From: Octopus vulgaris
Taxonomy: Eukaryota
Length of the DNA stretch: 64,000 bases
NCBI GenBank assembly: GCA_951406725.2
Contig: OX597815.1
Coordinates: forward strand, 34,968,001 to 35,032,000
Reading direction: 5' to 3'
Within the stretch, counting starts at the first letter, position 1, and each line of letters opens with the position of its first letter. Below, piece after piece: positions 14,881 to 15,689 of this stretch. The position numbers and the translations under genes are program-made. The notes beneath the pieces are model-generated. The model did no database searches, was not told where the DNA came from, and saw only the letters and a program-made list of their open reading frames with translations.

Positions 14881-15077
14881 AAAACAAAAACACCAGGATT
14901 TACAAACACATATAACATACAGAAAATTGCACTAATGGGCACTGCACACATCCTACGCAAAACGCTTTCAATACAGTAACCATAAGAGCATCACAGCAAA
15001 CCACGGCACATACCCAAGGCACACAGAGCTGCGCTCGGTAGTGAAGTGAAAGCCCGCTATAAAAGTAAAACTACTGA
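14881..15077 (+). mobile_element. R4/Dong-like LINE 3' fragment inserted in (TAA)n
   Basis: KTKTPGFTNTYNIQKIALMGTAHILRKTLSIQ* plus 3' UTR, closely matching the copy at 19034-19230. (TAA)n on both sides. Confidence 0.9.
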
Positions 15078-15689
15078 ATAATAATAATAATAATAATAAT
15101 AATAATAATAATAATAATAATAATAATAATAATAATAATAATAATAATAATAATAATAATAATAATAATAATAATAATTCTTATTCTTATTCTCCCCTCT
15201 GTAATTCATTCCTCGCTTCCTCTTCCTCTATCTCACTCCTTCCCCTCTCTCTGTGCCTCTCCCTCTCTGGAAAGCACAAATGTTTAGTTGCCACTAGAAC
15301 CATGCTGGCTGCTTGTTTATTTACAACCAAGTGAGTTCCACTCAAAACTCTGTATGCTATGGTCCTAATATAATACAAAAAATATATGACATGTCTCTGC
15401 AACTTTCAACTTATTCCCCGACGGAAGGTGCGCTGCAGTAGGCACCTTCTCTCGGTGGTGATGCGCCCGCCCTTCTCTCTAGCATCTTCCCTTATGTCCA
15501 ATTTCTACCTCAATTCCTGTTTATAACCATTCCTAAGCAGTCCTCCTGTTCTCGCTGTCGATTTGAATGGATTATACTGAACTTGCTGAATTAAATGTCA
15601 CCTTCCCCTTCCTAGTTGATCTTCCTTTCCTTTTCTTTTTATTTCTCTCGTTCTCTCTCTCTCTCTCTCAGCGCATATTTTCTAAAAAA

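What the first reader, a model, noticed from the sequence alone, without database searches (positions are those of the whole stretch)
15008..15177. Antisense R4/Dong 3' end forms a ready-made NAGNAG cassette or poison exon 326 nt upstream of a real WD40 exon
Seen: on the gene strand the retrotransposon terminus reads (TTA)~33-TT-CAG-TAG-[57 nt]-|GTATGT. Its acceptor context is the same as that of the genuine exon ((TTA)n-TTCAG at 14689). The incoming intron is phase 0. Using CAG gives a 60-nt exon (15073-15014) whose first codon is TAG, so a poison exon. Using TAG gives a stop-free 57-nt exon (15070-15014), inserting FYFYSGLSLHYRAQLCVPW into a WD40 blade. The second copy of this family (from 19034) keeps both the CAGTAG and the TGG|GTATGT sites. 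Established: Dong elements target (TAA)n, and antisense Alu exonisation works by a similar mechanism. Inference: site-specific insertion supplies the U-rich, AG-free tract automatically, so antisense intronic copies genome-wide could be pre-built splicing switches.
Basis: partly seen in the sequence, partly recalled or inferred. Interest (0 to 1): 0.75.

Follow-up and report, generated by a model that had tools for sequence, protein, structure and literature searches.

The report
Silent retrotransposon pseudo-exon in octopus intron
A short piece of a very common octopus retrotransposon lies backwards in an intron and carries exon-like splice signals, as about 6,000 of its copies do, but the three transcript assemblies that cross the spot splice straight past it, so it is likely an ordinary unused pseudo-exon and not a splicing switch.

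Summary
The sequence facts hold. A ~195-bp 5'-truncated Dong/R4-type retrotransposon end lies antisense in intron 3 of an Octopus F-box/WD40 gene. It gives (TTA)34-TT-CAG-TAG, a 60/57-nt frame and a GTATGT donor 326 nt above a real exon. By sequence these sites look as good as the gene's real ones.

The switch reading is not supported. The signals are the family consensus: 5,985 exact cassette matches genome-wide. All 3 of 3 junction-spanning transcript contigs join 38513 directly to 14687 (depth ~3, one study). Intronic copies show no antisense depletion: 8 antisense to 6 sense in 22 gene spans, 1.8 Mb, low power. The 'second copy' lies on the other strand, so its sites cannot serve this gene; with the first copy it forms an inverted pair predicted to cover the whole cassette. 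The 57-nt form would insert 19 residues into a WD strand, so both outcomes would likely be null.

Best reading: an unused pseudo-exon (0.8). Low-level inclusion hidden by NMD is not excluded. TAA targeting, which supplies the acceptor tract, is confirmed (27 of 42 junctions).

The parts
38513..38699 (-). Genuine upstream exon (187 nt) of the F-box/WD40 gene; donor phase 0
   Evidence: tblastn with P0001/P0005; spliced contigs cover 38513-38699 exactly
19034..19787 (-). Second, young 5'-truncated copy of the element, sense to the gene, TAA arrays on both sides; inverted partner of the focal copy
   Evidence: Plus/Minus to the focal copy, 92% over 191 nt; 99.5% to an intact copy over 749 nt; zf-RVT hit
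15077..15178 (+). (AAT)34 array at the element's 3' end; reads (TTA)n on the gene strand, the candidate acceptor tract
   Evidence: TRF; AG-free zone 104 nt, 70% U
15071..15076 (-). Tandem CAG-TAG candidate acceptor (family consensus)
15014..15073 (-). Candidate pseudo-exon: 60 nt from CAG (stop first), 57 nt from TAG (open), 43 nt from a third AG (start 15056); wholly antisense to the element's 3' UTR
   Evidence: not present in 3 of 3 junction contigs
15008..15013 (-). Candidate donor GTATGT (family consensus)
14883..15076 (+). Focal 5'-truncated Dong/R4-type fragment: ORF C-terminus (stop at 14977-14979) and ~97-nt 3' UTR; antisense to the gene
   Evidence: differs from the majority base of 29 close copies at 7 of 194 positions
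14691..14882 (+). (AAT/AAC)~64 array: 5'-side target of the insertion and acceptor tract of the genuine exon
   Evidence: TRF; AG-free zone 242 nt
14574..14687 (-). Genuine WD40 exon (114 nt), acceptor CAG at 14690-14688
   Evidence: contigs X1, X3, X4 join it to 38513; X3 and X4 go on to the next exon

Best explanation
This is a 5'-truncated Dong/R4-type retrotransposon end inserted backwards into the TAA array in front of a real exon, and its exon-like signals are the family's ordinary 3' end read on the other strand, which the spliceosome likely ignores. Shown: the element type, TAA targeting, the consensus origin of the sites and direct 38513>14687 splicing in the contigs seen. Inferred: the element inserted into a pre-existing TAA tract, leaving TAA on both sides and so duplicating the acceptor context; the 57-60-nt cassette loses to the real exon because it is small, lacks exon-defining enhancers and is U-rich at its start (not tested); since the young sense copy arrived 3.9 kb away, pairing is predicted to mask it further. 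Any leak would likely be destroyed by NMD (60 or 43 nt) or give a broken WD blade (57 nt), so it would be noise, not a two-state switch.
For: 3 of 3 junction-spanning contigs (runs X1, X3, X4; 4 runs laid, X2 had none) join the exons directly: the loose letters equal the upstream exon and record positions are contiguous. P0001, P0004 and P0005 lack the peptide. 5,985 exact cassette geometries and 6,588 exact donor-containing 43-mers genome-wide. In 22 gene spans (1,801,100 bases) 8 antisense and 6 sense 3' ends (p=0.79; 7:6 without the focal copy); 7 of 8 antisense copies keep CAGTAG and 8 of 8 keep GTATGT inside myosin, kinesin, SNF and F-box gene spans. No private change of the focal copy touches the AG or GT sites. 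44 acceptor positions in this intron pass a crude exon rule, 19 with an AG-free zone of 40 nt or more. The junction lies 3 residues before the end of a Pfam WD40 match (149-184 in P0005). Predicted duplex -339.5 kcal/mol against -72.6 +/- 7.9 shuffled, covering both AGs, 55 of 57 exon bases and the donor. Prior: 390 exonising against 74,470 non-exonising antisense intronic Alus (PMC2639721, section read).
Against: The RNA evidence is thin: contigs of depth ~3 from one study, contigs drop rare forms, a poison form would be depleted by NMD, and it is not shown that those animals carry the insertion. The sites score like the real ones: same acceptor tract as a used exon, donor 6 of 9 matches to the recalled U1 consensus against 6-7 for the seven real donors, and a real donor in this gene reads GTATGT. 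CAGTAG is a 'plausible' tandem acceptor used at both AGs in a human case (PMC2951375, passages). The orientation test (n=14) could miss a two-fold bias. Post hoc, 5 of 6 sense copies but 0 of 8 antisense copies were at least 95.5% identical to the reference copy, which could mean that young intact antisense copies are purged. The duplex cannot explain early tolerance, because the partner is much younger.
Confidence: 0.8

Rival explanations
1. Leaky cryptic exon: the cassette is included in a small share of transcripts, mostly through the proximal CAG, and removed by NMD. It is a mild unselected cost, shared by a minority of antisense copies.
For: Sites match the real ones of this gene; long introns (9-58 kb) favour exon definition and TE exonisation (PMC2911107, passages); contigs cannot show rare forms; young antisense copies were absent from the intron sample (post hoc).
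Against: 0 of 3 contigs; intact antisense copies persist in conserved gene spans; no cassette peptide found in two protein searches (both weak).
Confidence: 0.15
2. Regulated switch: tissue- or condition-dependent choice among skipping, a poison exon and a 19-residue cassette, possibly tuned by TAA tract length or by A-to-I editing in the inverted pair (the A of TAG would read as TGG, removing both the stop and the distal AG).
For: NAGNAG geometry and phase fit; the predicted duplex covers the sites; precedents in dog merle (PMC7349775, passages) and human NARF (PMC5974252, passages).
Against: No inclusion seen; all features are family consensus with no locus-specific change at the sites; the in-frame form would split a WD strand (plus established WD40 structure); the cited second copy is on the other strand.
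Confidence: 0.04
3. The insertion or the inverted pair acts not as an exon but on neighbouring splicing, for example promoting skipping of the 187-nt upstream exon.
For: The O. vulgaris model P0004 joins the exon ending at 64890 to 14687 and stops; inverted Alu pairs alter splicing of a nearby exon (PMC2533698, abstract).
Against: The pair does not flank that exon and lies 19 kb from it; contigs X1, X3 and X4 include it; P0004 may be an annotation artefact.
Confidence: 0.03

Closest known systems
Dong / R4-clade non-LTR retrotransposons (Octopus 'Dong-R4')
   Same: Single ~1,200-aa frame with RT, CCHC knuckle and R2-like C-terminus; TAA target (PMC3812793 passages); many intact young copies, in line with 1,129 recent Dong-R4 insertions in O. 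vulgaris (PMC13282606)
   Different: Nothing found; not matched to a named library family, and no RT tree was built
Antisense Alu exonisation
   Same: The element's 3' tail read backwards supplies the acceptor tract; consensus cryptic AG and GT; inverted pairs in one intron
   Different: A LINE 3' UTR; a (TTA)n tract with pyrimidine runs of only 2 nt, partly supplied by the target; no inclusion seen. Even for Alu only about 0.5% of the antisense intronic copies in PMC2639721's sets exonise
Dog merle SINE at the PMEL intron 10/exon 11 boundary
   Same: Antisense retroelement inserted into the acceptor region of a real exon, with a length-variable tract in front of a cryptic AG (PMC7349775, passages)
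   Different: Merle displaces the real acceptor from its branch point and the cryptic site is used; here the real exon keeps a 190-nt tract of its own and is spliced normally in the contigs seen
NAGNAG acceptors and poison exons
   Same: CAGTAG in phase 0 can add or skip a stop (CFTR case, PMC2951375 passages)
   Different: Those sit at used exons; regulated poison exons are typically conserved (recalled). This one is a young repeat with no shown use

Membership tests
R4/Dong clade | Single ORF with RT, CCHC knuckle and C-terminal restriction-like endonuclease, no APE (feature list recalled) | tested here: met
   Intact copy L196: RVT_1 E 1e-32, zf-RVT E 5e-5, no APE family up to E 1; best PDB matches are R2 proteins over residues 422-1172; PD...D motif seen by eye
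R4/Dong clade | No N-terminal zinc-finger/Myb domains, unlike R2 (recalled) | tested here: inconclusive
   No Pfam hit of that kind and the R2 alignments start only at residue ~420; absence of a hit is weak
R4/Dong clade | Insertion into (TAA)n | tested here: met
   27 of 42 5' junctions and 30 of 42 3' flanks TAA-rich; background 0.95%; 2 further copies ran off their locus and were left out
R4/Dong clade | RT phylogeny inside R4 | not tested
   No named reference sequences were on hand
TE-derived cassette exon | Intronic copy with usable 3' and 5' splice sites | tested here: met
TE-derived cassette exon | Junction evidence of inclusion | tested here: not met
   0 of 3 junction-spanning contigs, depth ~3, one study; rare inclusion not excluded
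TE-derived cassette exon | Orientation bias or site loss among intronic copies | tested here: inconclusive
   8 antisense: 6 sense in 1.8 Mb, p=0.79; sites intact; low power
Poison exon | Premature stop well upstream of the last junction | tested here: met
   TAG is the first codon; at least five further coding exons follow
Poison exon | Inclusion rises when NMD is blocked; regulated | not testable with these tools
   Only assembled contigs were offered
Poison exon | Conservation across species | not testable with these tools
   G000 has no relatives held
Alternative NAGNAG acceptor | Both AGs used in transcripts | tested here: not met
   Neither AG used in 3 of 3 contigs

The most novel reading that the evidence does not exclude
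Because this active TAA-targeting LINE delivers acceptor tract, tandem AG, open frame and donor in one step, tens to hundreds of its ~6,000 intact copies are real NMD-coupled exons in octopus long introns, tuned by TAA tract length and by A-to-I editing in inverted pairs: a large Alu-like exonisation system in an invertebrate.
Probability: 0.1. Interest if true: 0.72.

Novelty: new member of a known kind. Interest (0 to 1): 0.24.

Why it matters
As found, little: it is one of thousands of look-alike exons that seem to be ignored. It does offer a natural matched pair: two identical (TTA)n-TTCAG acceptors 386 nt apart, one used and one apparently not, plus ~6,000 near-identical cassettes in different contexts. 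That is a ready test set for exon definition in a long-intron invertebrate. If a fraction proved exonised it would matter, since TE exonisation was reported as very low in invertebrates and tied to intron length (PMC2911107, passages), and octopus has long introns.

Tried and rejected
1) Second copy as evidence of conservation: rejected, opposite strand. 2) Run search: no listed holder is on record as RNA; 5 of 24 listed runs were RNA-like holders, all as contigs; 4 were laid, X5 and the DNA-like X6-X8 were not. X2 gave no contig on the downstream exon, which is no evidence. 3) Protein searches for the antisense peptide: no candidate; one hit at E 9e-4, a repetitive moth protein, judged chance. 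Both are weak, because a 19-residue insert need not be a cluster representative. 4) Wider orientation count with the whole element: 14 antisense: 12 sense merged hits (p=0.85), but this mixes in older relatives and a second family's ends, so the 8:6 count of 3' ends is the one used. Exact cassette pattern in the spans: 3 antisense (one is the focal copy) and 1 sense, against 1.9 expected per strand. Gene spans were inferred from collinear Pfam exon hits and not verified as single genes; only 21 of the spans visible in those searches were fetched. 5) Duplex masking as the main cause: rejected on age, since the partner is 99.5% like an intact copy while the focal copy is ~3.6% from its family. 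6) The last exon of P0001 (3209-3096) has a stop in the window and is not in P0005 or in contigs X3/X4; treated as a model artefact. 7) Earlier findings: none. 8) No splice-site scoring model was available; only simple counts were used.

Full report
Setting. The window is G000:C2:34968001-35032000 in a 2.8-Gb genome. The host protein's relatives are Octopus F-box/WD40 (sel-10/FBXW7-like) models P0001, P0004 and P0005. P0005 maps as eight coding exons on the - strand over about 225 kb, with introns of 9-58 kb. The finding lies in the 23,825-nt third intron.

Observation. Two points need correction. The second copy aligns Plus/Minus to the first, so it is sense to the gene and its CAGTAG and GTATGT are not in the pre-mRNA. 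A third AG inside the candidate gives a 43-nt frameshifting form.

The element. The focal piece (14883-15076, + strand) is the end of an ORF plus about 97 nt of 3' UTR, between two TAA arrays. An intact natural copy (L196) has one long frame with RVT_1 and zf-RVT, no APE hit, and R2 proteins as best PDB matches. Many copies with open frames of about 1,230 aa exist. 27 of 42 5' junctions are TAA-rich against 0.95% background (2 copies without a 5' junction in their locus were left out). This fits Dong, which targets TAA (PMC3812793, passages), and the Dong-R4 families reported as recently active in O. vulgaris (PMC13282606, passages and first third of the text; PMC9115989, passages). No RT tree was built. 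The focal copy differs from the majority base of its 29 closest fetched copies at 7 of 194 positions. On that paper's scale (JC 0.09 = 25 My) this is very roughly 10 My, so it is probably fixed (inference). The second copy is 99.5% identical to L196 and much younger.

Are the sites special? No. The tandem acceptor bases are kept in 29 of 29 copies (28 of 28 at the outermost base) and the donor G and T in 28 and 29 of 29; none of the focal copy's private changes falls on them. The genome holds 5,985 exact matches to donor + 57-nt spacing + CAGTAG + five TAA units, and 6,588 to a donor-containing 43-mer, with reversed-pattern controls at 0.

Are the sites plausible? The last 30 nt before the candidate CAG are identical to those before the real acceptor, which is used. 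The candidate donor matches the recalled U1 consensus at 6 of 9 positions plus 2 wobbles, against 6-7 for the seven real donors, and the real donor of exon 2 reads GTATGT. CAGTAG was used at both AGs in a CFTR allele (PMC2951375, passages). But the same crude rule passes 44 acceptor positions in this intron and 422 in the gene's seven introns (19 and 118 with an AG-free zone of 40 nt or more), so plausibility is cheap.

Are they used? Five of 24 listed runs were RNA-like holders, kept only as contigs; four were laid. The contigs cover the exons exactly and not the flanking intron, so they are spliced. In X1, X3 and X4 the same records (lengths 266, 260, 252) end the upstream exon at record positions 231, 87 and 77 and begin the downstream exon at those same positions (one shared G), and the loose letters equal the upstream exon. 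That is 3 of 3 direct joins; X2 had no contig there. Limits: depth about 3, one study, rare forms dropped, NMD would hide a poison form, and carriage of the insertion in those animals is not shown (X4 has no mismatch over either exon). The three annotated proteins lack the peptide; two wider protein searches found nothing credible (weak).

Selection. In 22 gene spans of known strand (1,801,100 bases: the host gene plus 21 myosin, kinesin and SNF spans) there were 14 element 3' ends, 8 antisense and 6 sense (p=0.79; 7:6 without the focal copy; 5:4 outside the host gene). Of the 8 antisense copies 7 keep CAGTAG and 8 keep GTATGT. No depletion is seen, but n=14 cannot exclude a two-fold bias. Against my reading: 5 of 6 sense copies and 0 of 8 antisense copies were at least 95.5% identical to the reference copy. 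This post hoc pattern (p=0.095 on the wider merged set) would fit purging of young antisense copies, or loss of sense copies with age, or chance.

Outcome if included. The junction lies 3 residues before the end of a Pfam WD40 match, inside the strand that carries the WD pair (established WD40 structure), so 19 extra residues would likely break the blade. The 60- and 43-nt forms give early stops with several junctions downstream. All forms would likely be null, which leaves at most an on/off dimmer and not a NAGNAG isoform switch.

The inverted pair. The two copies lie 3.9 kb apart in the same intron. A predicted duplex of -339.5 kcal/mol (30 shuffles: -72.6 +/- 7.9) pairs both AGs, 55 of 57 exon bases, the donor and 31 of 34 tract bases. 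Stable structure over splice sites marks non-exonising Alus (PMC2639721, abstract), inverted Alus are edited and can alter nearby splicing (PMC2533698, abstract), and editing made the NARF Alu exon (PMC5974252, passages). Here masking is a prediction and can apply only since the young copy arrived.

Comparison and novelty. It works like a non-exonising antisense Alu, or like a merle-type insertion that missed (PMC7349775, passages). The element belongs to a known clade; the feature fails the inclusion test for cassette, poison and NAGNAG exons at the depth available. General suppression of TE exonisation is the rule (PMC10901741, abstract), and invertebrate exonisation was reported as very low (PMC2911107, passages). 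Eight literature searches (listings seen) showed no report of Dong exonisation in octopus; 'intron' does not occur in the main text of the two octopus TE papers. The library lacks most subscription papers and no supplements were read; the repeat library in PMC13282606's supplements may name this family.

Verdict. A real sequence feature, family-wide, most likely silent (0.8); leaky inclusion 0.15; regulated switch 0.04. Interest 0.24.

Noticed in passing
window 14883-15076 and 19034-19233: Inverted pair of element copies 3.9 kb apart in one intron, a predicted long duplex and possible A-to-I editing substrate.
   Followed up: partly
window 38513-38699; P0004: The O. vulgaris model P0004 skips this 187-nt exon, shifts frame and stops early in the 14687 exon; a real NMD isoform or a model artefact. 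Contigs X1, X3 and X4 include the exon.
   Followed up: partly
22 gene spans: Sense intronic copies were mostly younger than antisense ones (5 of 6 against 0 of 8 at 95.5% identity or more); post hoc and unexplained.
   Followed up: partly
L196 just 5' of the ORF; host-gene span and SNF spans (query 1-131): A ~95-130-bp TAA-tailed unit occurs in tandem before the intact element and alone elsewhere, probably the 3' end of a second TAA-targeting family nesting in the same arrays.
   Followed up: no
window 14688-14882: A used acceptor whose whole upstream 190 nt is a TTA/TTG microsatellite with pyrimidine runs of only 2 nt; the other six acceptors of the gene have ordinary tracts.
   Followed up: partly
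window 3096-3209 and 600-668: Sequence matching the C-terminus of P0001, with an in-frame stop and a second weak match nearby; likely repeat-derived and not an exon.
   Followed up: partly
G000 C2:34964642-34964757 and 34876915-34877030: Two more antisense copies with CAGTAG and GTATGT in later introns of the same gene; the contigs X3 and X4 that cross intron 4 go straight to the next exon.
   Followed up: partly
window 38737-38782: A 40-bp stretch just upstream of the real acceptor matches very abundant repeat-derived contigs in all four runs.
   Followed up: no
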